Below, piece by piece: positions 1 to 30,187 of a stretch of 47,112 bases of DNA (position 1 is its first letter; the number at the start of each line of letters is the position of its first letter). Below the pieces are notes generated by a model. That model was not told where the DNA came from, ran no database searches, and saw only the letters and a program-made list of their open reading frames with translations. The DNA is from a virus. Taxonomy: Duplodnaviria > Heunggongvirae > Uroviricota > Caudoviricetes. Made by a program: the position numbers and the translations under genes. Location of the stretch: IMG/VR virus record IMGVR_UViG_2585427763_000004; one strand, 5' to 3'.

Positions 1-1131
1 TCAAATGACCAGTTTTTTCCATTCCTTACCGCGTGCGTCGTTGTAAATATCGGTCATTTTTTGATTCGAATGGCCCAGCAAAATTTTGGTATCAACCCCC
101 TGCTCTCTGAACAATCGCTCTGATAAAGATCTCTGCTCATGGAAAGAGGGTGGGGTGCCATTAGCACGCCAGTTGTAATCCACAGAATCCCGGGCTTTTT
201 TAAATGCAACGGTTAATGTTGCTGGCTTAACCATCCCGCCGCGCTTAGCTGTCCCTTTCGCGTGATGGTGGTGCAATAGCCACGGACTAAGAACGCAATC
301 GCGGCAGGATGACACTACATCATCCAGGGTGAGATTTAATTTATCGCAACGCAGAGCCAGAGGGATGGCAATCCGGGTTCCTGTTTTTTGCTGTTCGACA
401 TGAAGATAACCATCCCGGATATCCGAAAATTGCATTTTGCAAATATCTGAAAGGCGCTGGCCTGTCATCAGTGCCAGCAGCATACCGCGCTGTAAAAAGT
501 AACCATCCTTTTCCGCTGCGTTATAAATCATCATCCACTCATCAAAAGTCAGTCGCTGTCTTGATATCCGCACCTGCGGTTTTTTTGCCGATTCTGCAGG
601 GTTAAAGCCTGGCGGGACATCGCCCGTTTGCTGAGCTTCCCGGAAAACATCGATCAGTACTTTCCTGAAAATTTGTCCCATTCTGTTATGTCCTCTGGCC
701 TTGTACTCTTCCAGTACTGATACCACATCTTTTACGGTTATGGCATCTAACGGTCTGGTGCCAAAACGTTCATCAAATACCCTGAGAGGGGCCGCTTTCT
801 GTTTCAGCGTGTTGAGTTTGATCTCGCCGTTTTCATATCTTTCCTGTTGAATTTTTCTGTAATTATTCAGAAAAATGGTAACGGTTGATGAACCGCCGGT
901 ATCACTAATAATTTTCTCCTGCAGACTGAGCATTTGTTCCATTTGCTGCCGGGCAAGACGGCTGTTCGCTTCTGCTGCAATAGTTTCTGCCAGTTTCTGG
1001 TCAATACTGCCGAGACCGTGATTTTTGCCTGTTATGGGATGCCTGTAACGCCAGTAAACTTTGTTATTTCTTTTGTCAAAATACGGAGATAATCCCGGAA
1101 CATCGGTTTTATATTTTCGCGGGCGCGCCAT
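1..1131 (-). CDS. int: Phage integrase (tyrosine site-specific recombinase)
   Basis: 376-aa ORF from the track. C-terminal region has the recombinase Arg box (QRLSDICKMQFSDI) and the His/Tyr box (LLGHSNQKMTDIYND). Overlaps the downstream excisionase ORF. Stop codon at window positions 1-3, so attL is outside the window. Confidence 0.9.
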   Translation of the reverse strand: MARPRKYKTDVPGLSPYFDKRNNKVYWRYRHPITGKNHGLGSIDQKLAETIAAEANSRLARQQMEQMLSLQEKIISDTGGSSTVTIFLNNYRKIQQERYENGEIKLNTLKQKAAPLRVFDERFGTRPLDAITVKDVVSVLEEYKARGHNRMGQIFRKVLIDVFREAQQTGDVPPGFNPAESAKKPQVRISRQRLTFDEWMMIYNAAEKDGYFLQRGMLLALMTGQRLSDICKMQFSDIRDGYLHVEQQKTGTRIAIPLALRCDKLNLTLDDVVSSCRDCVLSPWLLHHHHAKGTAKRGGMVKPATLTVAFKKARDSVDYNWRANGTPPSFHEQRSLSERLFREQGVDTKILLGHSNQKMTDIYNDARGKEWKKLVI

Positions 1132-1357
1132 CTTCCAGTATCCTCTTCAAAGCAGGGTGATCTGTGGCGATCACCTCCGGCTTGTTTACCATTCCGACAA
1201 AGCGAGCTTGCGGATCCACTCGCCAGCGTCTTCCAACTTTTTTGGGGAGAGGAAATATCATTCCGGCTTTAGCGTATTTACTTAACGTACTCGGAGTTGG
1301 GACCGGTTCACTGAATTCCTCTTTTGCCCACTCAGTGAGCAGAATAAGTCTTGCCAT
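1109..1357 (-). CDS. xis: Excisionase / recombination directionality factor
   Basis: 82-aa ORF immediately upstream of int and overlapping its start by about 22 nt, the classic xis-int arrangement. Small basic protein. Family assignment is by position and size, not by search. Confidence 0.65.
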   Translation of the reverse strand: MARLILLTEWAKEEFSEPVPTPSTLSKYAKAGMIFPLPKKVGRRWRVDPQARFVGMVNKPEVIATDHPALKRILEDGAPAKI

Positions 1358-1421
1358 GGGCGTCGTTCGCTAATCATGGTCGCCGCCACTATAGTTGGTG
1401 GGCAACGACCGGGGTTGAACA

Positions 1422-3896
1422 TTAAAAATCAGCCTGACTCGGGATCAGTTTTTGCCAGATAACTGAAACGTATTTTGCCTGGTAACGGGCGTCATCAAGT
1501 GCATTATGGCGCTCACCTTCGAATGGAATAGCCGTTCTGGCATCGAAGTCTATGGCTTTCCCCAGCTCAACGATTGTGCGTACATCGCGATCGTTGTAGT
1601 AACGCCACGGGTAGGGGATCCCCTGCCGTTCGTATGAACGGCGCAAAATCGTGTTGTCGAAGTTGGCTCCATTTCCCCAAACCTGAACAAAAAATTCACC
1701 GGAGTTTTCGTCGATAAATTCCCGCAATTGTAACAGTGCATCATCTAACGGGATTTCATCGGTCATAATGGCAGATTGCGCTTCGCGTGATTGCTTAAGC
1801 CACCATTTAATGGTGTCCCGATCAATGACTCCGCCAGCAGTTTCCAGATCGATAGTCTTACTAAATTCCGGTCCCATATCTCCGGTTTGCGGATCGAAAA
1901 ATATTGCACCTATTGAGATGATCGGGGCATCAGGATTTTTTCCCATGGTTTCAAGGTCGATCATTAGATGGTCACACGTCCTGCTGGTGGATGTGATTTC
2001 TTGATGACCGTTCACCTTAATTGAGTGATCTGCCGTCTCGCCAGTTTCATTATCGCTATCGTGATGCTGATTGCCGTCAGTGTTCTCCTTGTGTGGATGT
2101 TCAGCGCCTTCCATTTCCTCCGGATCATCTTCCTGAACTTCAACCTGATACTCTTCATCGAATGTTTCCTGGTATGTTGCGTCGCCCATCACCGCGCCAC
2201 AATCAGGGCAGTTGCCGCCGCCGGTCTGACCGCAGGCGGTGCAGACTTTTTCCACTTCCTGTTGCGCCACTGGTTCAGGCTGTTTCGTTTCTGGCTCGTT
2301 TTGTAACGCATTTGGGCTGTTTTGTTCCGCTTTCTGGCCGTTCTGTTCCGTTTCTTGCTGGTTCTGATTCACTGAATCGCGGGTTTCAATCCCCTTCACC
2401 CATTTCGGATCATTCGGGTCGCTAATCCCTGCAACAAATTCACCACGTGATACAGCAAGCAACTTATTGGCGTCAGGCTGGCTGATATTGGCTGCCTGCA
2501 TAATTTTGTTTACTTCGTCAGCGGTAACTTTTACCGGCTCTGGTTGTGCGATCGTGTCAGATGCACCAGTATTTTGTTGTGAACCTGAGTACGTGCCGTT
2601 TTTACGTGCGAAGTATTCCTCTTTTGTGATTTCCGTAGCTCCCAGGGCCAGTGCTTTTTCCAGACCAGAAAGTTTGTTTGCGCGACCGTATTTTTCGCCG
2701 TCCTTATCGGTGAAAAGGAAGTAGAACGGTCCCTCACGCTCTACAGATGGTTCGTCTTCCACTTCGCATTCGTTTTTTTCGTTGTCCGGCATTGCCGTTT
2801 CCACTGCATCAGTTTCTGGTACTGGTGACGGGAGAGTACCAGCTGTGCCCTGATTTGTTCCTTCGTCATCTTCAAACACGCCCTTGGTAGTCAGGTATTC
2901 AGTGATGTATTTGTTCAGTGCTACGGGATCTTTGTGAATGTCGATCGGACGCTCACGGACAAGGCCAAAAATAGTCTGACGGTCGTAGCGAACGGCATCG
3001 GGTTGTTTGCGCATTGATGCGGAAATGCGCTTCCAGTCTTCGCGATCTTTGTCGATAACTTCATTTTTTGCCCAGCGATGGATGCTGCCGTCAATGTTTC
3101 CGGTATCAATATCGCCAGGCCAGAGAGCGTAGGCCAGTTCTTCATCCAGCGTTTTCCATGTCTGCTTGTATTCGCGACAAATGGCGGCAGTGACTGGGTT
3201 GATTTTTCCTGCTGAGTTTTCAGTGTTCTGTTGATTGACTCTGGCGCTGGCGAGATCAACAACAGACGTGTATTTTCCAGTCTCTTTGCGCTCTGCGTCC
3301 TGCCGTTTTTTCCAGTTACGTAATTCAGCCTGAATTTCGGGCCATTTGGCACCCGGATTACATTTGTGTTTAACCCATCCGATAGCGAACAGTTTGCGTT
3401 CCGGATACATAGCGTTAATTTCAGGCGTTTTCATCAGTGCTTCAACGATATGCCCGTCAAAGGTAGCAACGTCTTCCTGCAGTAATTCCTGCGCGTCAAT
3501 CGCCATATCAACGGTGATGTTTTCACATGTACCGAACTTAACCAGGACCGCGTTCTGTACTTCAAGGGACAGCTTGTCAAAATTGACGTTCATCGGATCG
3601 GATTCTGGTTCGACCGGAATAAAGGAAGCGGATTCCTCATCCCAGCGGTTTTCCTGCATATATTCAGCATCCCAGGAATCGAGGGCAGGGCGGGGTATAC
3701 CGGGTTTATCCTCGCAGACAAGAAATTTATAAGCGCAGTCCTGAGCAGCCGGATAATGTTCCAGGAATTGCCAGTGAAATTTTGCGCGGGCGCGACGTTC
3801 ATCACCGGCTTCAATGGCAGTGGCTACAGCGACGGCACCTTCTTCCTTTATTGCCTGTTCGTCCGGAATGGCGGCGCAAATAAAGACTTTACTCAT
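1422..3896 (-). CDS. Large exonuclease (annotated in related prophages as exodeoxyribonuclease VIII-like) with C-terminal DnaQ-like DEDDh 3'-5' exonuclease domain
   Basis: 824-aa ORF. C-terminal about 180 aa carries motifs DLETMG (Exo I), WGNGANFD (Exo II) and HNALDDARYQ (Exo III). Central CxxC...CxxC element (CTACGQTGGGNCPDCG) and a Q/E/N-rich acidic linker. Sits in the lambda exo/bet position. Confidence 0.7.
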   Translation of the reverse strand: MSKVFICAAIPDEQAIKEEGAVAVATAIEAGDERRARAKFHWQFLEHYPAAQDCAYKFLVCEDKPGIPRPALDSWDAEYMQENRWDEESASFIPVEPESDPMNVNFDKLSLEVQNAVLVKFGTCENITVDMAIDAQELLQEDVATFDGHIVEALMKTPEINAMYPERKLFAIGWVKHKCNPGAKWPEIQAELRNWKKRQDAERKETGKYTSVVDLASARVNQQNTENSAGKINPVTAAICREYKQTWKTLDEELAYALWPGDIDTGNIDGSIHRWAKNEVIDKDREDWKRISASMRKQPDAVRYDRQTIFGLVRERPIDIHKDPVALNKYITEYLTTKGVFEDDEGTNQGTAGTLPSPVPETDAVETAMPDNEKNECEVEDEPSVEREGPFYFLFTDKDGEKYGRANKLSGLEKALALGATEITKEEYFARKNGTYSGSQQNTGASDTIAQPEPVKVTADEVNKIMQAANISQPDANKLLAVSRGEFVAGISDPNDPKWVKGIETRDSVNQNQQETEQNGQKAEQNSPNALQNEPETKQPEPVAQQEVEKVCTACGQTGGGNCPDCGAVMGDATYQETFDEEYQVEVQEDDPEEMEGAEHPHKENTDGNQHHDSDNETGETADHSIKVNGHQEITSTSRTCDHLMIDLETMGKNPDAPIISIGAIFFDPQTGDMGPEFSKTIDLETAGGVIDRDTIKWWLKQSREAQSAIMTDEIPLDDALLQLREFIDENSGEFFVQVWGNGANFDNTILRRSYERQGIPYPWRYYNDRDVRTIVELGKAIDFDARTAIPFEGERHNALDDARYQAKYVSVIWQKLIPSQADF

Positions 3897-3975
3897 TTTG
3901 TTTTACCTCATTACAGATTTAAGGGTGAACAAATCCCTGCCATTGCTGGCATATAAAAATGAAACTGGATATTAA

Positions 3976-4185
3976 TTACGGCGCTGTTTTTAATCCTGCC
4001 GGGATTTCGTTATTGTCCATGTGAATAACTTTATCGACCGGATAACAGTTGCCGGGAATTTTCTGTTCCGCTGCGGCAGCCATGCATTCTTTCATTGAGT
4101 TGTACATGCCGGTGATTGCATCAAGCGACTCACCAGTATTGAGATGTACAGTCAGAATGAGTACGAATAATGTGTTCATCGCCAC
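3976..4185 (-). CDS. Small hypothetical protein with hydrophobic N-terminus (DUF1482-like, tentative)
   Basis: 69-aa ORF in the early-left operon. N-terminal hydrophobic stretch LFVLILTVHL. Family name recalled from memory, unverified. Confidence 0.4.
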   Translation of the reverse strand: MAMNTLFVLILTVHLNTGESLDAITGMYNSMKECMAAAAEQKIPGNCYPVDKVIHMDNNEIPAGLKTAP

Positions 4186-4364
4186 TCTCCGAAAATACCG
4201 AGTTTAAGAAGGGCAATTCTGGAGAGTATGGAATTGTCATTCAGCAGGTAGGGTTCATATTTTCTCATATTGATTGCATCCTCGGTGAAATCCCTGTTAC
4301 TGAGCAGAACACCAATATTAAAGCACCCGTCAGACGTATTAACGTTTGGTAGTGACGTTTCCAT
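4176..4364 (-). CDS. Hypothetical small protein (kil-like position)
   Basis: 62-aa ORF overlapping the upstream gene end. No recognisable motif. Called from ORF context only. Confidence 0.3.
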   Translation of the reverse strand: METSLPNVNTSDGCFNIGVLLSNRDFTEDAINMRKYEPYLLNDNSILSRIALLKLGIFGEWR

Positions 4365-4374
4365 TATCGCGTCC

Positions 4375-4932
4375 TCAACAATGAATTTTTAGCAATTGCT
4401 CCACAGTCATATTTTTAATTGCGCTCCGGTTTACAAGAGTCCATCCTTGTTTCTCCAGATAAAACCGGAAGGTATCCAGGGTGCAGACCATTGCGCCGTC
4501 AGGAACGGTTTCAGTGAATTTGATATTGCCGTGTTCGTCGAGACGGATAACCAGGGTGCGTCCGTCCCCGTGAATCATTTTGTCGGGAGACGGGGCGTTA
4601 TTCTGGCGCAGTTCTGCTTCCATGCGGTCGAACTCAGCAATGTATGCCTCTTTAAATGCAGCGGCTTTTTTGCCAGTGAAGCCCATCACCAGGAAAACGA
4701 AGCCGTTTTTGGTGATTTGGTACATTGGGAGTTTGCGCCCGGTTGAGTCGGTGTATTCGCTCGACACAAAATTGTGCTCAGTGAATTTTGCTGAACAGTC
4801 CAGATTGCGAATTTTATCCAACACTCGTTCGTGGCGTTTGCCAAAGAACTCGGCGATCGCAACAGACGTAGTGACAGCGCGACCATTTTCGATGGTTACG
4901 TCAGGGTGAGAAAGGGTAAGGATAGTAGCCAT
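4375..4932 (-). CDS. Phage regulatory protein, Rha family
   Basis: The track ORF runs 4375..5229. The Rha-like core (TTSVAIAEFFGKRHERVLDKIRNL) begins near an internal Met whose ATG is at 4932-4930, preceded by GGAGG (minus-strand sense). A rho-independent terminator for the minus strand lies at 5102-5124 inside the longer ORF, so the short start is preferred. Confidence 0.6.
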   Translation of the reverse strand: MATILTLSHPDVTIENGRAVTTSVAIAEFFGKRHERVLDKIRNLDCSAKFTEHNFVSSEYTDSTGRKLPMYQITKNGFVFLVMGFTGKKAAAFKEAYIAEFDRMEAELRQNNAPSPDKMIHGDGRTLVIRLDEHGNIKFTETVPDGAMVCTLDTFRFYLEKQGWTLVNRSAIKNMTVEQLLKIHC

Positions 4933-5101
4933 GATGGCAGCCTCCGCGATGAATTTGATTAACTCACCACCGAGGTTTTCCACGACCATAAGGGTGGTGA
5001 GACGTACAGGGGTGGAAATACCGGTCATCACGGAACCCGGCCAGCCTTGCGGCTGCCCTGCACGCCCCACCATAATGCGAATGTGGCTGTGCTTAACGCA
5101 T

Positions 5102-5124
5102 AAAAAAACCGCCTGAGCGCGGTT
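5102..5124 (-). terminator. Rho-independent terminator (minus-strand transcription)
   Basis: Plus-strand sequence AAAAAAACCGCctgagcGCGGTT. On the minus strand this reads stem AACCGC / GCGGTT followed by a U7 run. Confidence 0.45.
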
Positions 5125-5775
5125 ATGCGCCGTGAATGATTTCGGGTTTCCACGCCCGGCACCCGTTTTATGAGGTGCAGGTGCACTATAATTCCACCCG
5201 TTCTGGTTTTCAATAGCTACATTCAACATTTTCTCTACCTTTCATCACCGAAGTGAACTTTGTTGATGCGGTGCCTGGTGCCTCCAGGTGACGTTAACCA
5301 GTTAACAATTAACGTCGGATACAGAGCATTCCCGTTACGCCCGTAAAAGACCGCTTGTTTTAACTGTTCCGCGTGCGCTGAGCCGCATTCACCGCATCAC
5401 AAAATTCACTTTAAAAAGGGCGGCAGAGCAGTCACGGAGTAGAACTGATACCGCCAAAAGTCACCAGAAAATTGATAACAGAGGGCGTTGCAGCGGAGTT
5501 GTCACTTAAGCGTATGGTCAACCTGACAACCCGGTGTCCTCAACGGGGGAAGGAATAACCCCGCCATACTTACCGCCGCGCCATTTCGCGGATTGCCACA
5601 ACCGGAAGCGCACGATCGAATTAAATTTAACGACGACCTATACAGAGAGACTAACTTCTCCGGGCGCTTTCGTGTTATGCCCTGACTTTTCAGGGATATA
5701 TCCTTTTCAGTAAACTGTCAGTGCCGGATTCTTATCCGTGTCCGGCGCACGCACTCTACCTCACCTGTGAATAAA

Positions 5776-6162
5776 TTAATGATTAATTGATATTTTGTTG
5801 TTTGATTCAACTTTCCCATCGGATGTGTGATGCTTTAAATCACAGGAATTAATACTGCTCGCTGTAAAATGATTTTCAAGGGGAGCTATTCGAATCCCTT
5901 TCTTTTTCATTAACAAGCCAAATCCTTTATTAATGATGTCCATTAATTCCAGGAAGTATTTTTCATGTAAATCCTGGTTATCAGAGAGCTGCTTCTCTTC
6001 GTACAGACCGATAAAGGCACGACGCACGTTACCGGATATAGTATCGATGGTTTCTTTTTCTACGGTACTCAGGTCAAGAGTCGCCAGTTGAGAGCGAACC
6101 ACATTCGATGCCATTTCCTGGAATGGTACTGGTAAATCTTTAAATTCCATCGTCAACCTCAT
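5776..6162 (-). CDS. Hypothetical protein (early-left operon)
   Basis: 128-aa ORF. Its start overlaps the stop of the upstream 50-aa ORF (TGATG-type coupling). An alternative start at MEFK, 12 nt downstream, is possible. Confidence 0.45.
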   Translation of the reverse strand: MRLTMEFKDLPVPFQEMASNVVRSQLATLDLSTVEKETIDTISGNVRRAFIGLYEEKQLSDNQDLHEKYFLELMDIINKGFGLLMKKKGIRIAPLENHFTASSINSCDLKHHTSDGKVESNNKISINH

Positions 6163-6314
6163 CAGTCAGTGTTTCTGGTTAACCAGCGACGCGCGCCAGC
6201 TTCAGTTTTAAACGTTTTGCTTCTGGTATACGTCATCGCGGTAAACGTGCCGTCCTGGTTGGGAAACACGCCGTACACCAGAGATTCGTTGTTGCCAAGA
6301 TCGATAGTATCCAT
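6162..6314 (-). CDS. Hypothetical small protein (50 aa)
   Basis: Not in the track (<60 aa). Found by manual translation: ATG at 6314-6312 preceded by GAGG, product MDTIDLGNNESLVYGVFPNQDGTFTAMTYTRSKTFKTEAGARRWLTRNTD, stop overlapping the next ATG. Confidence 0.35.
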   Translation of the reverse strand: MDTIDLGNNESLVYGVFPNQDGTFTAMTYTRSKTFKTEAGARRWLTRNTD

Positions 6315-6567
6315 GCTGACCTCATTTCCCCTTAACGCCGGGTGGCGGAACTAAAACCTACAGCGCCGTGCTGTTCTTGATAGAAATATTAGTAACGCGG
6401 ATATTTTAAGTCAACAGTATGGCGTATGATATTTTTGATTTGGTAACTATGTAAATGTTTTTTCAAGGGAAAAATATTAGTTATACAGCTGATTTGCAGA
6501 AGTTATGGCACAAAAAAACCAACTAAGACGTCGGTTTTTTTGTTGTGGATGGGGTAGTGAGCGGTGG

Positions 6568-7029
6568 CTACTGGTTACGTTTCTTTAGTGCCAGCATGTT
6601 CTCGAAGGCTTCCTCGTAGAGCTTGTTTAGTCCACGTAGCTGGTTAAGGAGTTTGGCTTTTTCTGACGCAGGTAGAATCTCGAAGAGGTTAAGTAACTCT
6701 GCCTGTTCTTCATTGACCAGCCTCCATCCTTTGCCTGAAAAGTTATCATCATAAGTATCTGATGATCTTACATAATTCATTAAGTCTTTAAGGTCTTCTC
6801 GAATGTCCTCTGGTTTTACCTTTAACAGAGCCGCAAATTTTAGCGCAGCGTCGGTATTTACCGGTATCTTGCCGTTCAGATACTGGCTAACGGTGCCTTG
6901 AGATTCGAATCCCAACAACTCAGCCGCCAGCTCTTGAGTCAGCTTCAGCTCTTTTTTTCTTGCATTCCATGCGGCTTTTAAATTCTTGCTCGCTTCTGGA
7001 GTTGCAATCACTTCGCGTGTTTTTTTCAT
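6568..7029 (-). CDS. Prophage repressor, HTH XRE/CI-type, without S24 peptidase domain
   Basis: 153-aa ORF with an N-terminal helix-turn-helix (LTQELAAELLGFESQGTVSQYLNGK). Divergently oriented to a Cro-like gene. No Ala-Gly/Ser-Lys autocleavage module visible. Confidence 0.75.
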   Translation of the reverse strand: MKKTREVIATPEASKNLKAAWNARKKELKLTQELAAELLGFESQGTVSQYLNGKIPVNTDAALKFAALLKVKPEDIREDLKDLMNYVRSSDTYDDNFSGKGWRLVNEEQAELLNLFEILPASEKAKLLNQLRGLNKLYEEAFENMLALKKRNQ

Positions 7030-7136
7030 ACATAGAGTTTATTTGTTTTACCAATATTATCAAAGATAGCCTGGCTATTGATCTTTAAAATTAGCGGGGC
7101 TAATATTTGCTCGAGGCATAACGTAGAAGGTTGGCT
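7030..7136. promoter_or_regulatory. Divergent promoter/operator region of the immunity switch
   Basis: 107-bp intergenic region between the divergent repressor and cro-like genes. Two palindromes with the same half-site: ATAGCCtGGCTAT (7066-7078) and TTAGCgggGCTAA (7091-7103), i.e. TAGC-N3-GCTA, centres 25 bp apart. Confidence 0.5.
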
Positions 7137-7412
7137 ATGAACTTAAGAGACTATTTAAAAGAGAAACATATCACCCAGCTACAGTTTGGGAAGCTAACGG
7201 GTTTATCTCAGGTGCATGTAAGTCGAGTGCTGGGGGGCTATGAAAGATTCAGCCCTGAAAAAGCATTACGTGTTGCTGAAGTAACGAATTTCGAGGTTAC
7301 ACCTCATGAACTCCGGCCTGATATTTACCCGAATCCAACCGACGGCTTACCTGTTGGATTCAAGGCTAACACACCAAATGCATCGGAGTTGATTCATGAA
7401 AATCAGGCATGA
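7137..7412 (+). CDS. Cro-like HTH regulator (YdaS-like)
   Basis: Track ORF begins at a TTG at 7131. The ATG at 7137 is preceded by GAAGG. HTH segment QLQFGKLTGLSQVHVSRVLGG. Divergent to the repressor. Confidence 0.7.
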   Translation: MNLRDYLKEKHITQLQFGKLTGLSQVHVSRVLGGYERFSPEKALRVAEVTNFEVTPHELRPDIYPNPTDGLPVGFKANTPNASELIHENQA

Positions 7413-7821
7413 GCACATCCGCATGGCGATGAATGCCTGGGCGCATCCGGACGGTGAAAAAGTTCCGGCAGCTGAAATAACCCGGGCTTATTTTGAGCTT
7501 GGTATGACGTTCCCGGAATTATATGACGACAGCCATCCGGAAGCCCTGGCTCGCAATACCCAGAAAATTTTCCGCTGGGTGGAGAAAGACACTCCTGATG
7601 CGGTTAAAAAAATTCAGGCGTTGTTACCAGCGATCGAAAAAGCAATGCCGCCTCTGCTGGTGGCCCGAATGCGCAGCCACAGTTCAGCTTATTTTCGGGA
7701 GCTGGTGGAGACGCGGGAACGACTGGTGAGAGACGCTGATGATTTTGTCGCAGTGGCGATCGCTGGTTTCAACCAGATGAATCGTGGTGGCCCGGCGGGA
7801 AATATTGTGGTTGTGCATTGA
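7396..7821 (+). CDS. YdaT-like protein (CII-like regulator family of Rac-type prophages)
   Basis: 141-aa ORF overlapping the 3' end of the cro-like gene. Sequence resembles Rac YdaT as recalled from memory. Assignment not verified by search. Confidence 0.55.
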   Translation: MKIRHEHIRMAMNAWAHPDGEKVPAAEITRAYFELGMTFPELYDDSHPEALARNTQKIFRWVEKDTPDAVKKIQALLPAIEKAMPPLLVARMRSHSSAYFRELVETRERLVRDADDFVAVAIAGFNQMNRGGPAGNIVVVH

Positions 7822-7892
7822 CTGACAATATTCATACCGGATCGCTTCCGGTAATTCGTGAGTAAAAAGATTCGGTATCAGAAGAGGTGAGT

Positions 7893-8933
7893 ATGGCTAA
7901 TGCCTGGCTCAGGTTATGGCATGACATGCCAAATGATCCTAAGTGGCGAACAATTTCCAGGGTGTCAGGACAGCCAATTGCAACAGTGATGGCGGTGTAT
8001 ATCCACCTTCTGGTGAGCGCGTCACGAAATGTCACGACATGTCACGGCGTGTCACTACGTGGTCACATTGATGTCACGACGGAAGATTTAGCAAGTGCGC
8101 TTGATGTGACGGAAGAAGTAATTGATTCAATTTTACAGGCAATGCAGGGGCGGGTACTTGATGGAGATTTAATCACCGGATGGGAAAAACGCCAGGTACT
8201 GAAAGAGGACAATGGCAACGTTTCACAAACCGCGAAATCCCCGGCAGAGCGCAAGAGAGCGCAGCGCGAGAGGGAAAAATTACGAAAACAGAATGAGGGG
8301 TGTCACGACGAGTCACGCATATGTCACGACATGTCACGACGAGTCACGACAGATAAAGATACAGATAAAGAATTAAACCCCACACATAACGCGCACGTGC
8401 GCGAGAGTGCTCCGACCAGTGAGTCGAGTGGTACGCCGTTGCAGGCAGCAGAACCTGCATCCCTGGATGGACTGAGCGAACCCATCGGGAAATTTCCGAT
8501 GGTCGATGACTGGCATCCGTCGCCGGATTTTCGACGACGGGCTGCGTTGTGGGGGATGGCTTTGCCGGAGCCGGAATTTACACCTGCTGAACTTGCCGCT
8601 TTCCGGGACTACTGGGCAGCGGAGGGGAAAGTTTTCACGCAGGTTCAGTGGGAGCAGAAATTCGCCCGTCACGTAAATCACGTCAGGGCGCAGGTTAAGC
8701 CAGTCAGCAAGGGGGTAAACCATGCAGCAGCACCAGGTGGCACCGCATCACGGGCAGTTCAGGAAATTCGGGCAGCACGTGAGCAGTGGGAACGTGAAAA
8801 CGGATTTATCAGCGACGGAAACGGTCTGGAAGCTGTGGGAACTCATGGGGGAGGTTTATTCGAACCGCTGGACCCAGAAGAACGGGGCCGCACCTTCGAA
8901 GCTCTGGATTGCACAGATTGGCGCGATGACTGA
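7893..8933 (+). CDS. Replication initiation protein (lambda O analogue; DnaT-like C-terminal domain suspected)
   Basis: ATG at 7893 preceded by GAAGAGG. Sits upstream of a P-like gene. Contains two in-frame arrays of TGTCACGAC-like iterons, as the lambda O gene contains ori. The last about 210 nt overlap the P-like ORF in another frame. Confidence 0.6.
   Translation: MANAWLRLWHDMPNDPKWRTISRVSGQPIATVMAVYIHLLVSASRNVTTCHGVSLRGHIDVTTEDLASALDVTEEVIDSILQAMQGRVLDGDLITGWEKRQVLKEDNGNVSQTAKSPAERKRAQREREKLRKQNEGCHDESRICHDMSRRVTTDKDTDKELNPTHNAHVRESAPTSESSGTPLQAAEPASLDGLSEPIGKFPMVDDWHPSPDFRRRAALWGMALPEPEFTPAELAAFRDYWAAEGKVFTQVQWEQKFARHVNHVRAQVKPVSKGVNHAAAPGGTASRAVQEIRAAREQWERENGFISDGNGLEAVGTHGGGLFEPLDPEERGRTFEALDCTDWRDD
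8020..8080 (+). repeat. Iteron array 1 (six direct GTCAC-containing repeats at about 10-11 bp spacing), candidate ori
   Basis: Read directly: GTCACgaaat GTCACgacat GTCACggcgt GTCACtacgt gGTCACattgat GTCACgac. An inverted GTGAC copy follows near 8106. Confidence 0.6.
8301..8350 (+). repeat. Iteron array 2 (five TGTCACGAC-like direct repeats) followed by an AT-rich tract
   Basis: Read directly: tGTCACgacg aGTCACgcat atGTCACgac atGTCACgac gaGTCACgac, then AGATAAAGATACAGATAAAGAATTAAA. Confidence 0.6.
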
Positions 8934-9387
8934 GCAGCAAATCCGACAGGTCTGCCGCCAGTGCATGGACCGCTGCCGGGCGGGTGAAACATGGCCTCCG
9001 GACCTGGCTGAGTTTGTGGCGCTGATTTCGGAGAGCGGAGCCAATCCATTCGGTCTGACGGTGGATGCTGTGATGGAGGAGTACCGCCGCTGGCGCAATG
9101 AGTCCTGGCGATATGACGGAAGTGATAAGTACCCGTGGCCTCAGCCTGTGCTGTATCACATTTGCCTTGAGATGCGTTCAAAGGGGATTGAGCGCCAGAT
9201 GACCGAAGGGGAATTAAAACGGCTTGCAGAACGGCAGCTGACGAAATGGGCAAAGCATGTTAGTAACGGCCTGAGCGTTCCGCCAGTCCGGCGACAACTG
9301 GCGGCACCCAAACGCCCGTCGGGGCCAACGCCAATTGAGTTGCTGAAACAGGAATATGAACGCCGGAAAGCGGCTGGGTTTGTCTGA
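8722..9387 (+). CDS. Replication protein P-like (DnaB helicase loader)
   Basis: 221-aa ORF. ATG at 8722 preceded by GGGGG at a 6-nt spacer. Central and C-terminal region aligns by eye with lambda P (YPWPQPVLYHICLEMRSKG versus lambda YPWKSNAHYWLVTNLY). In-frame alternative starts exist at 8845 and 8926. Confidence 0.7.
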   Translation: MQQHQVAPHHGQFRKFGQHVSSGNVKTDLSATETVWKLWELMGEVYSNRWTQKNGAAPSKLWIAQIGAMTEQQIRQVCRQCMDRCRAGETWPPDLAEFVALISESGANPFGLTVDAVMEEYRRWRNESWRYDGSDKYPWPQPVLYHICLEMRSKGIERQMTEGELKRLAERQLTKWAKHVSNGLSVPPVRRQLAAPKRPSGPTPIELLKQEYERRKAAGFV

Positions 9388-9419
9388 GTTGAGAAGTAAT
9401 TTTTACCGGGAGGAAATTT

Positions 9420-10172
9420 ATGGAGACTGTTTTTGACGCACTGAAAGCGATGGGAAAAGCCACGTCGGTAGAGCTGGCTGCGCGACTTGATATCAGTCGT
9501 GAAGAAGTGCTGAACGAACTATGGGAACTGAAAAAGGCTGGTTTCGTTGATAAAAGCGCGTACACCTGGCGTGTGGCTGATAACAACGTTCAGCAGGAAC
9601 AGCCAGCGCAGGCAGAACTGCCGGAAGAAACCACCACAGCAACAGTAGCGAAAATCTCAGAGTGCGATTTAACCGCAACGATTGAACAACGCGGACCACA
9701 AACGGCGGATGAACTGGCTACGTTTTTCGGCATCACATCACGCAAAGTGGCTTCAACGCTGGCAATGGCAATCAGTAAAGGTCGTCTGATTCGCGTTAAT
9801 CAGAACGGTAAATTTCGTTACTGCATGCCGGGCGATAATTTACCAGCAGAGCCGAAAGCTGCATCGGTAGCGGAAACTGATGGTAAAGCCTTTCCTCAGC
9901 CAGCCGGTGTTGCGTTACCAGTACTGGAAGCTGCAACACAGGAAGATATTAAAACCGAAACTGTGGCGGACATTGTGCAGTCGTTGCCATCGTTTACTGA
10001 AACGCAAGCGGATAACCTGATTTTACCATCGCTGCATATAGCAAATCGTGAACTGCGTCGGGCGAAAAGTCATGTCCAGAAGTGGGAACGAGTCTGCACC
10101 GCGCTGCGGGAGCTGAACAAGCACCGGGATATTCTTCGGGATATTACCGCGACCGGAGAGCTGCAGCGGTGA
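9420..10172 (+). CDS. Hypothetical protein with N-terminal winged-helix-like segment (DUF1627-like, tentative)
   Basis: 250-aa ORF in the nin-equivalent region. N-terminus [29 protein letters not shown] looks like a wHTH. Family name from memory. Confidence 0.5.
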
Positions 10173-10486
10173 GTGGCTGGAAGAAGTGGTACGAGGCTGA
10201 AATCATGATACTCCGGCAGTGTGCGGGAACGATGACGGTCGAAAGCATTGGGAGGCTGACCGGTCGTACAGGTGATGCTGTCAGAACGAAAGCGCGGGAA
10301 CTGGGTGTCAGCCTGATGTTACGGGGTGATTATCACCAGTCAACAAAATATCCGCAGAGTGATATTGAACTGGCGCGACAGCTGCATCAGCGTGGCGTAC
10401 CCAGGAGAGAAATCGCCAGAAAATTTGGAATGCCGTTGCGCACAGTGAATAACTACGTTTATTTCGACAGGAGAGTTCAGGAGTGA
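10169..10486 (+). CDS. Hypothetical HTH-containing protein
   Basis: Track ORF 10082..10486. Preferred start is the GTG at 10169 overlapping the upstream stop (GTGA). C-terminal HTH-like segment [19 protein letters not shown]. Confidence 0.4.
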
Positions 10487-10488
10487 GG

Positions 10489-10779
10489 GTGAGAGTTTAT
10501 ATTGCCGGTCCAATGACCGGGTATAAAAATTTCAACCGTGAGGCGTTCCACAAGGCGGAAGAGGAACTGAAACGGGAAGGGCATACAGTCTTGAACCCGG
10601 CAGTACTTCCGGATGGGCTGACACAGCCGCACTACATGGATATTTGCATGGCAATGATTCGTTGTGTGGATGCGATTTACATGCTGAAAGGCTGGCAGCG
10701 GTCAGCAGGTGCTAAGGCAGAACTGGCGCTGGCGGAGAAACTGGGGCATGCAGTTATTTTCCAGGAGGAGGTACAGTGA
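10489..10779 (+). CDS. DUF4406 / nucleoside 2-deoxyribosyltransferase-like protein
   Basis: N-terminal YIAGPMTG motif and a Rossmann-like pattern typical of the family. Track start is the GTG at 10483; the GTG at 10489 has better spacing from CAGGAG. Confidence 0.55.
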   Translation: MRVYIAGPMTGYKNFNREAFHKAEEELKREGHTVLNPAVLPDGLTQPHYMDICMAMIRCVDAIYMLKGWQRSAGAKAELALAEKLGHAVIFQEEVQ

Positions 10780-11051
10780 ATATCGACGCAACAATGACGA
10801 TTGGTACGGCCCTCAATACGGGGTTGGCGCTTCTTGGTTGGTGCTACATCATGTTCTGCTCATGGCGGTGGCTGTCACTGATGTTACTGAAAGAATGGAA
10901 TAAACGCTGTAAACAGACGCAGCGGCAGAAGGCAATGAATGCGTTTTTTGAGACCTTCGATATTGACAGTATAGAACCAGGAGAGCCAGCTCGCGTGATT
11001 AGCAGAGGTGACGTTGTAATTCTTGTATACCGGAGTGAAGAGAAAGCATAA
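10776..11051 (+). CDS. Small hypothetical membrane protein
   Basis: 91-aa ORF. GTG start overlaps the upstream stop. One hydrophobic helix (LALLGWCYIMFCSW). Confidence 0.4.
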   Translation: MNIDATMTIGTALNTGLALLGWCYIMFCSWRWLSLMLLKEWNKRCKQTQRQKAMNAFFETFDIDSIEPGEPARVISRGDVVILVYRSEEKA

Positions 11052-11156
11052 TCCAAATCTGAATAATTAAATCCAGCACTGTAAATAAAATTTAATCCTT
11101 AACCGGAGGGATTTCTGCACCCTCAGAACATCAGGAGGCCGCCTGAAAGGGCGGTA

Positions 11157-11579
11157 ATGAAAATGACTGAATTAACAAAAGAACAATTAATCGAAGAAGC
11201 CAAATTAAAAATAGCGATTACGAAATGCCACCCCAATTCAGGGATGGCGCGAGTAGAGGGCGAGTTATTCAAAATTGCACTGGCATCGCTGGAAGCAGAG
11301 CCGATAGCGTGGCGATATCGCTACGTGAAAAAAGGTGTTATGGACTCTCAGGGGGAGTTGTGGGTTGGTGACTGGAAATATGTACCGAAAAAAGAGGATT
11401 GTAACGACAGGCCGAACTATGAAATTCAGGCCTTATTCACTGCCCCACCAGTCCCGGTTACATCAGAAGAACTGGTTAAAGCTGTGCACTTTTATGAACA
11501 ACTAAAACGCGAAAATCCACCAGCATCCGGCAACCAGATTAATGGGTTAACTATGCCGGTTAAACGACCAGCCGACTGA
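11157..11579 (+). CDS. Hypothetical protein
   Basis: 140-aa ORF with a plausible RBS context. No motif recognised. Confidence 0.45.
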   Translation: MKMTELTKEQLIEEAKLKIAITKCHPNSGMARVEGELFKIALASLEAEPIAWRYRYVKKGVMDSQGELWVGDWKYVPKKEDCNDRPNYEIQALFTAPPVPVTSEELVKAVHFYEQLKRENPPASGNQINGLTMPVKRPAD

Positions 11580-11790
11580 AAAACGGAAACCTGATTACAG
11601 ATTCCCAGATAAGGCAATGAGCTACCTGGCGTAGAGTGGGCTGATAAGTATGGGGAATGTTTTACGATGAATATTTAGACTAAAGAGTTTGTAACGCTAT
11701 GTAAGTGATTTTTTCTGGTTTAGATATTTATATGTCCGGCCAAATTGAGGTGTGTTTAAATGTAATTGCACATTGATTGTAGGGGGAATA

Positions 11791-11970
11791 ATGAAAAACG
11801 CATTGCAGTTTTTGTTTGTTGCGTTCTGGTTGTTCGCATCATGTATGCCCATCATCTTCACAGCAAGGTATATGGAAAAAATTGATGTTTTGATATTAAT
11901 GTTTGGACATATAAATGCCCTTTTTTTAGGGGTGTTCATGGCGGTCACGTGCATTGAATACTGGCGGTAA
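11791..11970 (+). CDS. Small hydrophobic protein (2 predicted TM helices) in an AT-rich island
   Basis: Track ORF 11752..11970. Internal ATG at 11791 is preceded by AGGGGGA. Product MKNALQFLFVAFWLFASCMPIIF... Low-GC context. Confidence 0.3.
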   Translation: MKNALQFLFVAFWLFASCMPIIFTARYMEKIDVLILMFGHINALFLGVFMAVTCIEYWR

Positions 11971-12229
11971 ATACAGCGAACGCTATTGGTTTAGTTGGAT
12001 ATTTACTGTGCCGGACAAAAACGGTTTGCAGGGAAATCTTAGTTAAGTAGAATGACTGTGGGTGCTTGAGGCTATCTGTCTCAGGCATGAACACCAAAAG
12101 GCAGATAGAGAAAAGCCCCAGTTAACATTACGCGTCCTGCAAGACGCTTAACATTAATCTGAGGCCATATCTATGCTCTACACACGTAGGTTAGCCTCTT
12201 ACGTGCCGAAAGGCAAGGAGAAGCAGGCT

Positions 12230-12385
12230 ATGAAGCAGCAAAAGGCGATGCTAATCGCCCTGATCGTCATCTGTTTAACCGTCATAGTGACGGCACTGGT
12301 AACGAGGAAAGACCTCTGCGAGGTACGAATCCGAACCGGCCAGACGGAGGTCGCTGTCTTCACAGCTTACGAACCTGAGGAGTAA
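12230..12385 (+). CDS. hok: Hok/Gef-family type I toxin
   Basis: 51-aa product MKQQKAMLIALIVICLTVIVTALVTRKDLCEVRIRTGQTEVAVFTAYEPEE. It has the family pattern: TM helix, then LTRK-x-LCE[IV]R ... E-V-A-x-F-x-AYE. A longer upstream in-frame reading frame starts at 12173. A terminator follows. Confidence 0.75.
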   Translation: MKQQKAMLIALIVICLTVIVTALVTRKDLCEVRIRTGQTEVAVFTAYEPEE

Positions 12386-12453
12386 GAGACCGGGCGGGGG
12401 AGAAATCCCTCGCCACCTCTGATGTGTCAGGCATCCTCAACGCACCCGCACTT

Positions 12454-12480
12454 AACCCGCTTCGGCGGGGTTTTGTTTTT
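12454..12480 (+). terminator. Rho-independent terminator at the hok mRNA 3' end
   Basis: AACCCGCttcgGCGGGGTTTTGTTTTT: GC stem, tetraloop, U-run. Confidence 0.7.
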
Positions 12481-12604
12481 ATTTTCAACGCGTTTGAAGT
12501 TTTAGATGGTGCCGGAATAGAATCAAAAATACTTAAGTAGCGCGCAGGGAGAAGAGGGATGGACCCCGAAGGGGAAGAGCTATTTATCTGGAAGGATTCT
12601 GAAG

Positions 12605-12778
12605 ATGAAAATCGAAGAATTACGTGAAATTTTTAGTGAAGATGGCCTCTATGCTGTGCGCGTTGAGAATGGGGGTATTACCTACACAGCGTTAATTCCT
12701 GATGATCATGTAGTGTTATCTGTTGAGGCATTCATTGAATACTTGGAAAGACTCGGTTTCAAGGTAGTTCGGGAATAA
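12605..12778 (+). CDS. Hypothetical small protein (57 aa)
   Basis: Below the track cutoff; manual translation gives MKIEELREIFSEDGLYAVRVENGGITYTALIPDDHVVLSVEAFIEYLERLGFKVVRE, stop TAA at 12776-12778. Coding-like composition. Confidence 0.35.
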   Translation: MKIEELREIFSEDGLYAVRVENGGITYTALIPDDHVVLSVEAFIEYLERLGFKVVRE

Positions 12779-12837
12779 GTTATAATACGTGAGCCAGCCT
12801 GAACAACTGGCAACCTGCAGCGCCATTGGAGATGACA

Positions 12838-29839: not shown

Positions 29840-30187
29840 ATGGTGACGAAAACCATCACTGAACAGCGTGCGGAAGTACGTATTTTTGCCGGTAATGATC
29901 CGGCTCACACCGCCACAGGCAGCAGCGGGATTTCCTCGGCAACACCAGCACTGACACCCCTGATGCTGGATGGGGCCACCGGGAAACTGGTGGTCTGGGA
30001 CGGACAGAAAGCCGGTAGTGCGGTTGGCATACTGGTACTGCCGCTTGAAGGCACAGAGGCGGTGCTGACGTATTACAAGTCGGGGACCTTTGCGACGGAG
30101 GCAATCCGCTGGCCTGAAAGTGTGGATGAACACAAAAAGGCCAACGCCTTTACCGGCAGTGCCCTGAGTCACGCGGCGCTGCCGTAA
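29840..30187 (+). CDS. D: Head decoration protein gpD
   Basis: 115-aa ORF. NDPAHTAT, TPLMLD, VVWDG, AVGIL, YKSGTF match lambda D as recalled. Confidence 0.9.
   Translation: MVTKTITEQRAEVRIFAGNDPAHTATGSSGISSATPALTPLMLDGATGKLVVWDGQKAGSAVGILVLPLEGTEAVLTYYKSGTFATEAIRWPESVDEHKKANAFTGSALSHAALP

What the first reader, a model, noticed from the sequence alone, without database searches (positions are those of the whole stretch)
5776..6314. Translationally coupled 50-aa / 128-aa gene pair in the rex/N position downstream of the repressor
Immediately downstream of the repressor, on the same strand, two ORFs are coupled by overlapping stop and start (TGATG): a 50-aa ORF found only by manual translation and a 128-aa ORF. 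In lambda this position holds rexAB (exclusion) and then N. Neither product resembles N or Rex as far as I can recall, so this could be an uncharacterised lysogen-expressed module.
Basis: partly seen in the sequence, partly recalled or inferred. Interest (0 to 1): 0.45.

Follow-up and report, generated by a model that had tools for sequence, protein, structure and literature searches.

The report
First genes of a dicBF-type prophage operon
The two small genes are real, but they are the well-known opening genes (a YdfA-like DUF1391 protein and a common hypothetical protein) of the repressor-controlled dicBF early operon of an E. coli lambdoid prophage. They are not a new lysogen-expressed exclusion module, and what the two proteins do is still unknown.

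Summary
Both ORFs exist on the minus strand, and the TGATG overlap is real. ORF1 (6314..6162, 50 aa) is a DUF1391 protein, 90% identical to K-12 YdfA. ORF2 is PHROG 6937, a "hypothetical protein" found in about 930 of 5426 complete E. coli genomes. Its conserved start is the ATG at 6150 (124 aa, GAGG Shine-Dalgarno, 11-nt gap), not the overlapping ATG. Both genes are under purifying selection (dN/dS 0.1-0.3).

The pair is separated from the repressor gene by a 253-nt spacer. The spacer holds a terminator hairpin and a TTGACT-17-TAATAT promoter that aligns with K-12 dicBp. Downstream on the same strand lie DicF sRNA, isrK and C4 RNAs, a Rha antirepressor, dicB, DUF1482, a RecE-like exonuclease, xis and int.

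So this is the 5' end of a dicBF-type (PL-like) operon. In Qin, that operon is repressed 22-fold by DicA and its transcript is the DicF precursor.

The parts
6162..6314 (-). ORF1, 50 aa: DUF1391 protein, a YdfA/YdaF homolog and first cistron of the operon. Shine-Dalgarno GAGG at 6323..6320.
   Evidence: Pfam PF07151 at E 4e-28, 97 bits against a cutoff of 27. PHROG 751. 90% identical to K-12 YdfA. dN/dS 0.09-0.21. AF2 model is beta-beta-beta-alpha, pLDDT 83. RefSeq annotates it as 'DUF1391 family protein'.
5776..6150 (-). ORF2, 124 aa from the conserved MEFKDLP start; the longest ORF starts at 6162 and gives 128 aa. Shine-Dalgarno GAGG at 6160..6157. It is a PHROG 6937 'hypothetical protein' with a conserved N-terminal domain (about residues 1-55) and a variable C-terminus.
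   Evidence: PHROG 6937 at E 1.5e-76, with the profile starting at residue 5 of the 128-aa ORF. RefSeq WP_000394557.1 is 124 aa. The NCTC86 homolog starts at the same ATG with no upstream ATG. dN/dS 0.21-0.30. AF2 gives three helices plus a disordered tail, pLDDT 62. Only 58 clusters at 50% identity among 1.84 billion proteins.
6386..6414 (-). Candidate PL/dicBp-type promoter: -35 TTGACT (6414..6409), 17-nt spacer, -10 TAATAT (6391..6386). The inferred transcription start is near 6379-6377 (ATCAA).
   Evidence: Consensus scan gives 9 of 12 matches. It aligns base-for-base with K-12 TTGACC-17-TAATCT upstream of ydfA. The same architecture, with the -10 ending 34-39 nt before the conserved leader, appears in about 20 of the 22 different upstream (immunity) sequence types among IMG/VR contigs.
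6384..6406 (.). Dyad AAATATTAGTAACGCGGATATTT overlapping the -10: a candidate repressor operator. It contains one of three CTAATATTT copies; the others are at 6472..6480 and 7100..7108.
   Evidence: CTAATATTT occurs 3 times in the 47 kb, all in the immunity region, against 0.27 expected; 0 of 100 shuffles reach 3. It is the only match to the dyad pattern in the window. Repressor binding is inferred and was not tested.
6510..6543 (-). Terminator-like hairpin (A7/U7-flanked stem) just after the repressor stop codon.
   Evidence: RNA fold gives -17.6 kcal/mol, z -5.7, with 0 of 200 shuffles as stable. Inverted repeat I1. The G.U pair becomes G-C in NCTC86.
6315..6378 (-). 5' UTR of the operon. 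It has a small 5'-proximal hairpin (6374..6360) and a conserved leader GTTCCGCCACCCGGCGTTAAGGGGAAATGAGG (from 6351 down to the ATG).
   Evidence: The leader is nearly invariant across five prophages with different repressors, including a distant one (L014) that was found independently of the pattern. The hairpin sits at the same position with different stem sequences in 7 types.
6568..7029 (-). Prophage repressor, 153 aa, with an HTH_3 domain. It is DicA-like in architecture and has no S24 peptidase domain.
   Evidence: Pfam HTH_3 at 1e-9. NCBIfam DicA model at 1e-8, below its cutoff, spanning residues 18-152. The C-terminal 42 aa are 38% identical to DicA.
5418..5469 (-). DicF sRNA, downstream on the same strand. 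The pair's mRNA is its presumed precursor.
   Evidence: Rfam RF00039 at 71.5 bits (gathering score 48), E 6e-15. The whole 5230-5760 spacer is collinear with the K-12 ydfC-dicF-dicB spacer.
4176..4364 (-). dicB homolog, 62 aa, further down the same operon.
   Evidence: 64% identical to K-12 DicB. RefSeq annotates it as dicB.

Best explanation
The pair forms the two promoter-proximal cistrons of a dicBF-type early-left (PL-like) operon of an intact-looking lambdoid prophage. The prophage is of the type integrated next to ompW in E. coli EcPF7.

Shown by sequence or homology:
- The gene order on the minus strand is: repressor, terminator hairpin, sigma-70 promoter (TTGACT-17-TAATAT), conserved leader, ydfA-like DUF1391 gene, an 11-nt gap with GAGG, the 124-aa MEFKDLP-family gene, about 310 nt of untranslated RNA, DicF, isrK/C4 RNAs with a Rha-type antirepressor, dicB, DUF1482, a RecE-like exonuclease, xis and int.

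Inferred from the experimentally studied Qin and Rac homologs:
- In the lysogen the 153-aa DicA-like repressor occupies operators that overlap this promoter and keeps the operon largely off.
- The repressor lacks a LexA-type cleavage domain, so induction is expected to work through an antirepressor, or by stochastic switching, rather than by RecA-mediated cleavage.
- Once derepressed, one polycistronic RNA is made. ORF1 and ORF2 are translated from it, with ORF2 initiation helped by its closeness to the ORF1 stop codon. RNase E and RNase III cut DicF out of the same RNA.

Best guess, low confidence:
- The two proteins are small, soluble, mildly acidic cytoplasmic early proteins. They are not toxins, N, or Rex.
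- They act as accessory host- or competitor-directed modulators, like other small PL-operon products (Kil, DicB, Ral).
- In ORF2, the conserved N-terminal helical domain would provide a common function or partner, and the swappable C-terminus would provide specificity.
For: Family and identity:
- ORF1 is DUF1391, 90% identical to YdfA.
- DicF scores 71.5 bits and dicB lies downstream on the same strand.
- The UTR containing DicF is collinear with K-12.
- The promoter aligns with K-12 dicBp, and homology to K-12 starts just after it.

Comparative evidence for the promoter, leader and gene order:
- The same promoter-to-leader spacing appears in about 20 of the 22 upstream (immunity) sequence types.
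- The leader is conserved across prophages with different repressors.
- In IMG/VR contigs DicF follows in 19 of 21 informative MEFKDLP-type contigs and 58 of 61 ydfB-type contigs.
- The synteny repressor - DUF1391 - MEFKDLP-family gene - KilR - ExoVIII - int is kept in a prophage where ORF2 is only about 24% identical.

Separation from the repressor gene:
- Terminator hairpin with z -5.7.
- CTAATATTT occurs 3 times, only in the immunity region.

Literature:
- The dicBF transcript initiates upstream of ydfA. DicA represses it 22-fold and Rem derepresses it 165-fold. ydfA mRNA and DicF come from one transcript (PMC10448788).
- ydfABC have unknown function, and inducing the operon without dicF and dicB is not toxic (PMC5069750).
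- Rac ydaF and ydaG rise about 40-fold when racR expression drops (PMC6765115).

Both ORFs are under purifying selection.
Against: - No expression or binding data exist for this particular prophage or its repressor, which shares only its C-terminal 42 aa with DicA.
- The operator assignment is weak. The two perfect TAGC-N3-GCTA palindromes in OR have no counterpart in OL, and the shared CTAATATTT could simply reflect similar -10 regions.
- ORF2 is absent from K-12 Qin and Rac, so nothing experimental bears on it directly.
- dicBp in Qin is leaky (a subpopulation, and stationary phase), so 'silent in the lysogen' is not absolute.
Confidence: 0.85

Rival explanations
1. A rex-like module: the pair is co-transcribed with the repressor in the lysogen and excludes superinfecting phages.
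For: It lies on the same strand as the repressor and directly leftward of it. The dicBF operon as a whole does confer phage exclusion, but through DicB acting on ManYZ (PMC6832061). dicBp is on in a subpopulation of Qin lysogens.
Against: A 253-nt spacer with a stable hairpin and an own promoter aligned to DicA-repressed dicBp lies between them. There is no similarity to RexA, RexB or any PADLOC defence model above noise. The homologous ydfA and ydaF genes are repressed in the lysogen. In K-12 the exclusion phenotype of the operon maps to dicB.
Confidence: 0.07
2. A two-gene toxin-antitoxin or addiction pair, with a small labile protein and a larger partner that are translationally coupled.
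For: The arrangement is tight (11-nt gap or TGATG), the products are small, and it sits in a prophage.
Against: No TA family hit for either protein. ORF1 is followed by ydfB instead of ORF2 in 69 of 104 IMG/VR contigs, and ORF2 follows ydfC in NCTC86, so the two are not obligate partners. Induction of ydfABC without dicF and dicB is not toxic in K-12. The ORF2 C-terminus is freely swapped.
Confidence: 0.03
3. ORF2 is an N-like antiterminator that lets transcription read through the DicF terminator to reach dicB, recE and int.
For: It occupies the N position (an early PL gene), is about the size of N, and a terminator after DicF must be passed to reach downstream genes.
Against: The N-terminus is acidic (MEFKDLPVPFQEM) with no arginine-rich motif, and the pI is 5.9. 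It is absent from Qin and Rac, which still express dicB and kilR. No boxA/boxB-like element was recognised, and Rfam found nothing in 5776-6500. The C-terminus is variable.
Confidence: 0.03
4. The ORFs are not functional proteins, and the region matters only as the RNA leader or precursor of DicF.
For: Neither protein has a known function. ydfABC are dispensable for the known phenotypes of the operon.
Against: dN/dS is 0.09-0.30, with dS up to about 1 for ORF1 against YdaF. Shine-Dalgarno sequences and start codons are conserved. The AF2 model for ORF1 is confident. ORF2 N-domain residues stay invariant down to about 24% identity.
Confidence: 0.03

Closest known systems
dicBF operon of E. coli K-12 cryptic prophage Qin (dicA | dicBp-ydfA-ydfB-ydfC-dicF-dicB-ydfD)
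   Same: The repressor gene is followed on the same strand by a promoter. The first cistron is a DUF1391 protein (90% identical). There is a long UTR carrying DicF (collinear, roughly 90% identical), then dicB and a DUF1482/ydfD-position gene.
   Different: ydfB and ydfC are absent, and a 124-aa MEFKDLP-family gene that Qin lacks follows ydfA. The repressor and operators belong to a different immunity type. An isrK/C4/Rha-antirepressor block is inserted between dicF and dicB. The prophage still has exonuclease, xis, int and structural genes.
Rac prophage early-left region (racR | ydaG-ydaF-[sieB]-kilS-kilR-ydaE-racC-recE)
   Same: A repressor, a gap of about 300 nt, then small ORFs including a DUF1391 protein (YdaF, roughly 80% identical to ORF1), then an sRNA, a division inhibitor and recE. 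ydaF and ydaG are derepressed about 40-fold when racR falls.
   Different: In Rac, DUF1391 is the second gene (after ydaG). There is no MEFKDLP-family gene, and kilR/kilS take the place of dicB/dicF.
Lambda rexA-rexB (the lysogen-expressed exclusion genes downstream of cI)
   Same: Only the position leftward of the repressor on the same strand.
   Different: rexAB are co-transcribed with cI, with no terminator or promoter in between (established knowledge). Here a hairpin and a promoter intervene. There is no sequence or profile similarity.
Lambda N / P22 gene 24 (the first PL gene, an antiterminator)
   Same: The first-genes-after-PL position, and a similar size for ORF2.
   Different: There is no arginine-rich N-terminus, the protein is acidic, and no nut-like element was found.
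PHROG 6937, 1363, 2151 and 9419 (phage ORF families of unknown function)
   Same: ORF2 matches PHROG 6937 end to end. Its first 55-64 residues also match the N-termini of the other three.
   Different: The C-terminal parts are unrelated, with lengths from 58 to 212 aa. None has an assigned function.

Membership tests
dicBF-type early-left operon (Qin-like) | The promoter-proximal cistron encodes a YdfA/DUF1391 protein | tested here: met
   Pfam PF07151 at 97 bits against a cutoff of 27. 90% identity to K-12 YdfA.
dicBF-type early-left operon (Qin-like) | DicF sRNA lies downstream on the same strand within a long untranslated spacer | tested here: met
   Rfam DicF at 71.5 bits against a gathering score of 48, at 5469..5418. 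The spacer is collinear with K-12.
dicBF-type early-left operon (Qin-like) | dicB lies downstream of dicF | tested here: met
   A 62-aa ORF at 4364..4176 is 64% identical to K-12 DicB. RefSeq annotates it as dicB.
dicBF-type early-left operon (Qin-like) | ydfB and ydfC lie between ydfA and dicF | tested here: not met
   Both are absent from the window. They are present in NCTC86, which has the identical repressor. Strain ATCC 8739 is reported to lack ydfB as well, so this feature varies within the family.
dicBF-type early-left operon (Qin-like) | An own promoter lies between the repressor gene and ydfA and is repressed by the adjacent repressor | tested here: inconclusive
   A promoter-like site aligns with K-12 dicBp and is conserved in position across immunity types. 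Candidate operator motifs are present. Repression itself cannot be tested with these tools.
Pfam DUF1391 (PF07151) | Score above Pfam's gathering threshold over the full domain | tested here: met
   97.2 bits, profile positions 1-47 of 48.
Lambda RexAB-type lysogen-expressed exclusion module | Homology to RexA/RexB or another known defence protein | tested here: not met
   No Pfam, NCBIfam or PADLOC hit apart from a noise-level AbiEi match at E 0.004, 15 bits.
Lambda RexAB-type lysogen-expressed exclusion module | Co-transcription with the repressor (no intervening terminator or promoter) | tested here: not met
   A 253-nt spacer holds a hairpin with z -5.7 and a sigma-70-like promoter. This is sequence-level only; transcripts were not measured.
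N-type antiterminators | An N-terminal arginine-rich RNA-binding motif and a cognate nut (boxA/boxB) site in the leader | tested here: not met
   The ORF2 N-terminus is acidic and the pI is 5.9. No Rfam match in the leader. nut was searched for only by eye.
Type II toxin-antitoxin pairs | A recognisable toxin or antitoxin domain and obligate pairing | tested here: not met
   No family hits. ORF1 pairs with ydfB in 69 of 104 contigs and with ORF2-type genes in 27 of 104.
PHROG 6937 | A full-length profile match | tested here: met
   E 1.5e-76, profile positions 1-124 of 124 aligned to residues 5-128 of the long ORF.

The most novel reading that the evidence does not exclude
The MEFKDLP-family proteins (ORF2) would be a polymorphic class of early prophage effectors. 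A conserved two-helix N-terminal domain of about 55 aa would dock to a common partner (possibly the co-encoded DUF1391 protein or a host factor), and interchangeable C-terminal modules (58-212 aa, no known domains) would target different host or rival-phage functions. In that case the DUF1391 + MEFKDLP pair would be an uncharacterised phage-competition or anti-defence cassette switched on with DicF and DicB. A smaller possibility is that the invariant leader GTTCCGCYACCCC.GCGTTAAGGGG, together with the 5' hairpin, is a new cis-regulatory RNA controlling the whole operon.
Probability: 0.12. Interest if true: 0.5.

Novelty: already known. Interest (0 to 1): 0.15.

Why it matters
It matters little as a discovery. 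The locus is identical or nearly identical to annotated loci in hundreds of E. coli genomes, and it belongs to an operon that has been studied since the 1980s.

What this check adds:
- It places the pair correctly, as PL-type early genes and part of the DicF precursor rather than a rex analogue.
- It corrects the ORF2 start codon.
- It shows that about 11% of complete E. coli genomes carry a dicBF operon variant in which ydfB and ydfC are replaced by a member of an uncharacterised, C-terminally polymorphic protein family.

The functions of YdfA/DUF1391 and of this family remain a genuine but modest gap. These are among the most common prophage early genes in E. coli and are co-expressed with DicF and DicB, which affect cell division, metabolism, virulence regulation and phage resistance.

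Tried and rejected
- Pfam, NCBIfam and PADLOC scans of both proteins gave nothing beyond DUF1391.
- Pfam scans of 19 diverse ORF2 relatives, the 212-aa O157 variant and other relatives found no domain.
- A profile HMM search of 1.84 billion representative proteins with the ORF2 alignment found only 58 clusters, all sharing just the N-domain.
- The AF2 model of ORF2 (pLDDT 62) against Foldseek PDB and BFVD gave no hit with E below 0.6.
- BLASTP of ORF2 against YdfB, YdfC, YdaG and DicB showed no relationship.
- The operator search was unrewarding. No 12-18-mer is shared between OL and OR at 1-4 mismatches. The TAGC-N3-GCTA palindromes occur only in OR.
- RNAalifold on the 5' UTRs did not recover the type-specific 5' hairpins, because they do not align.
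- The genome-contig scan with the ORF2 alignment returned only 2 loci, both in E. albertii.
- The hairpin at 6374..6360 was considered as an attenuator. This was rejected as a general feature, because the U-rich tail is not conserved in other immunity types.

Full report
**Observation**

The two ORFs lie on the minus strand: 6314..6162 (50 aa) and 6162..5776 (128 aa). They share base 6162, so the stop TGA and an ATG form TGATG. They lie leftward of an HTH repressor gene (7029..6568), which diverges from a YdaS/Cro-like gene (7131..7412) and a YdaT/CII-like gene (7396..7821). The coordinates and the overlap are therefore correct.

Neither ORF is a chance ORF.
- ORF1 hits Pfam DUF1391 at 97 bits (cutoff 27). 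ORF2 hits PHROG 6937 at E 1.5e-76.
- Nei-Gojobori dN/dS against homologs from other prophages is 0.09-0.21 for ORF1 and 0.21-0.30 for ORF2. dS reaches about 1 for ORF1 against Rac YdaF.

**Start of ORF2**

The PHROG profile begins at residue 5 of the long ORF. RefSeq annotates the identical locus in E. coli EcPF7 as a 124-aa protein (WP_000394557.1), with an 11-nt gap after the DUF1391 gene.

In strain NCTC86 the homolog follows ydfC. It starts at the same MEFKDLP ATG, preceded by ACGAGGCTAATA, which contains no upstream ATG. A GAGG sits 6 nt upstream of the ATG at 6150. The conserved start is therefore 6150.

The TGATG is a property of one recurrent junction allele. It is present in all 27 IMG/VR contigs that have that junction. 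Coupling by proximity remains plausible under either start.

**What surrounds the pair**

An Rfam scan of 3500-8000 finds, on the same strand downstream of ORF2:
- DicF (5469..5418, 71.5 bits against a gathering score of 48),
- a sub-threshold STnc100 match,
- isrK (5178..5102, 67.7 bits),
- a C4 antisense RNA (5077..4990, 81.9 bits).

Further down the strand lie:
- an Ash/Rha antirepressor-type ORF,
- dicB (64% identical to K-12 DicB),
- a DUF1482 gene,
- an 824-aa RecE-like exonuclease.

In the identical EcPF7 locus, xis and int then follow, next to ompW.

ORF1 is 90% identical to K-12 YdfA. The whole stretch 5230-5760 is collinear with the K-12 ydfC-dicF-dicB spacer. This is a dicBF-type operon.

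Strain NCTC86 has an identical repressor protein and an essentially identical repressor-to-ydfA spacer. There the order is ydfA, ydfB, ydfC, a 106-aa ORF2 homolog, then DicF. The window therefore carries a variant in which ydfB and ydfC are missing. K-12 Qin has no trace of ORF2.

**Is the pair transcribed with the repressor?**

Between the repressor stop codon (6568) and the ORF1 ATG (6314) lie 253 nt.
- Just after the repressor gene there is a 14-bp hairpin (6543..6510). Its fold energy is -17.6 kcal/mol, z -5.7, and 0 of 200 shuffles are as stable. Its single G.U pair is G-C in NCTC86.
- Downstream of the hairpin is a sigma-70-like promoter, TTGACT-17-TAATAT (6414..6386).
- In an alignment with K-12 this promoter falls exactly on TTGACC-17-TAATCT upstream of ydfA. 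Sequence homology to K-12 begins just downstream of it.
- I examined 117 IMG/VR contigs that carry the leader and have at least 150 nt upstream of it. They fall into 22 different upstream (immunity) sequence types. About 20 of these show a TTGAC-like -35 and a -10 ending 34-39 nt before the same conserved leader. The exceptions include the large O157-type cluster, which has no obvious promoter in the 90 nt examined.
- The 9-mer CTAATATTT occurs three times in the 47-kb window: twice in this spacer (one copy overlapping the -10 inside a 23-bp dyad) and once in the repressor/cro intergenic region. The expected count is 0.27, and 0 of 100 shuffles reach three.

This is the anatomy of a PL-type promoter with operators. 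Repressor binding itself is inferred, and the operator code could not be solved.

**Experimental anchor from the literature**

- Deleting dicA raises dicBp 22-fold, and the antirepressor Rem raises it 165-fold.
- The promoter also fires spontaneously in a subpopulation and in stationary phase (PMC10448788).
- ydfA, ydfB and ydfC have unknown function.
- Inducing the operon without dicF and dicB is not growth-inhibitory (PMC5069750).
- The phage-exclusion phenotype of the operon maps to DicB acting on ManYZ (PMC6832061).
- In Rac, ydaF (the DUF1391 paralog) and ydaG increase about 40-fold when racR expression falls (PMC6765115 and PMC11014345).

By homology, the pair here is a repressed early-left transcript and not a rex-like lysogenic one.

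**How common is the arrangement?**

- The 141-nt junction ORF1/ORF2 is present at 80% coverage or more in 580 of 5426 complete E. coli genomes. ORF2 itself matches in 928 genomes.
- Among 104 IMG/VR contigs with the leader and DUF1391, 69 continue with ydfB (1-nt gap). Another 27 continue with a MEFKDLP-family gene, always with an 11-nt gap and with product lengths of 58-212 aa.
- DicF follows in 19 of 21 informative contigs of the second class and 58 of 61 of the first.
- Prophages with different repressors keep the same pair with the same 11-nt gap: NS-NP030 has a 129-aa HTH repressor and O157:H7 TT12B has a LexA-family repressor.
- A distant prophage keeps the order repressor, DUF1391, MEFKDLP-family gene (150 aa, about 24% identical), KilR, ExoVIII, int.

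**The proteins**

ORF1:
- The AF2 model is a three-stranded sheet plus a C-terminal helix, pLDDT 83.
- A 19-residue sequence similarity to phage head-decoration proteins (E 0.03) also shows up against the window's own gpD-like gene at 29840..30187 (E 0.012).
- That similarity probably explains the stray 'head-DNA stabilization protein D' annotations in phage records. No structural match to gpD/SHP was found.

ORF2:
- The AF2 model has three helices (8-23, 32-53, 59-83) and a disordered tail, pLDDT 62.
- Foldseek against PDB and BFVD gives nothing.
- A profile search of 1.84 billion representative proteins finds only 58 clusters. They share the N-terminal residues of about 1-55 (invariant M1, L6, P7, Q11, A14, F46) and have unrelated C-termini.
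- No Pfam domain occurs in any variant.
- Both proteins are soluble and mildly acidic.
- Neither has an arginine-rich motif, a TA hit or a defence hit.

**Conclusion**

The pair consists of a ydfA homolog plus a common, unnamed hypothetical gene, at the 5' end of a dicBF-type PL operon.

I am about 85% confident in that placement and in repressor control. The biochemical roles of the two proteins remain unknown. My best guess is that they are accessory early modulators, with ORF2 having a modular, specificity-swapping C-terminus. That guess is weakly supported.

The rex-like, TA-like, N-like and non-coding readings are each unlikely, at 0.07 or below.

Noticed in passing
window 4375-5229 (-), with Rfam hits at 5102-5178, 5139-5191 and 4990-5077: The 284-aa 'Ash + Rha' ORF overlaps three RNA elements: isrK (67.7 bits), a c4-a1b1 target (sub-threshold) and a C4 antisense RNA (81.9 bits). 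The Pfam Phage_ASH match (residues 14-109) therefore sits on RNA genes. An internal ATG at 4931 with a GGAGG 8 nt upstream (MATILTLSHP...) may be the real start of the Rha/antirepressor protein. The block looks like a P1 immI / Gifsy-1 isrK-anrP-type module inserted between dicF and dicB, compared with K-12.
   Followed up: partly
window 6315-6378 (-); loci L003, L005, L006, L014, L016-L135: The ydfA leader GTTCCGCYACCCC.GCGTTAAGGGGAAATGAGG is almost invariant across prophages with different repressors, and is even more conserved than the ORF1 N-terminus in L014. A small hairpin sits at the same place, about 6-22 nt after the presumed start 'ATCAA', in seven immunity types, each with a different stem sequence. 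This could be an mRNA-stabilising or regulatory 5' element. Individual z-scores are modest (-0.4 to -2.5).
   Followed up: partly
window 7066-7078 and 7091-7103: Two perfect 13-bp palindromes, ATAGCCTGGCTAT and TTAGCGGGGCTAA (consensus WTAGC-N3-GCTAW), lie 25 bp apart in the repressor/cro intergenic region. They are the only zero-mismatch matches in 47 kb and have no counterpart in the OL spacer. They may be operators for the repressor, the Cro-like protein or the YdaT-like protein.
   Followed up: partly
window 6165-6314 compared with window 29840-30187: DUF1391 residues 21-44 resemble a segment of the prophage's own gpD/SHP-like head decoration protein (tblastn E 0.012; PDB 1TD0/1TD3 E 0.03). 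Some GenBank phage records label the ydfA homolog 'head-DNA stabilization protein D', which is probably a mis-annotation arising from this short similarity.
   Followed up: partly
protein P0162 (149 aa): One representative protein is a fusion of a YdfC-like N-terminal part to the MEFKDLP N-domain. This is consistent with the ydfC-then-ORF2 gene order seen in NCTC86. It may be a read-through or a frameshift.
   Followed up: no
window 5259-5406 (-): A sub-threshold Rfam match to the Salmonella sRNA STnc100 (35.6 bits against a gathering score of 47) lies immediately downstream of DicF. The stretch is conserved with K-12.
   Followed up: no
window 5776-5990 (C-terminal half of ORF2); L002 4576-4851: Mosaic breakpoints fall inside ORF2, after about codon 53-63 and again near codon 100. 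In NCTC86 the ORF2 tail is replaced, and a 91-aa opposite-strand ORF lies between ORF2 and DicF.
   Followed up: partly
L001 (E. coli EcPF7 chromosome), equivalent to window 1-13000: The window is 99.7% identical over the 1331-nt query (window 5230-6560) to a prophage integrated next to ompW in the uropathogenic isolate EcPF7. The 'PPompW' phages in the phage collection and the Stx2a-converting phage records (which carry PPompW annotations under the match) share only the DicF region, at about 89% identity.
   Followed up: no
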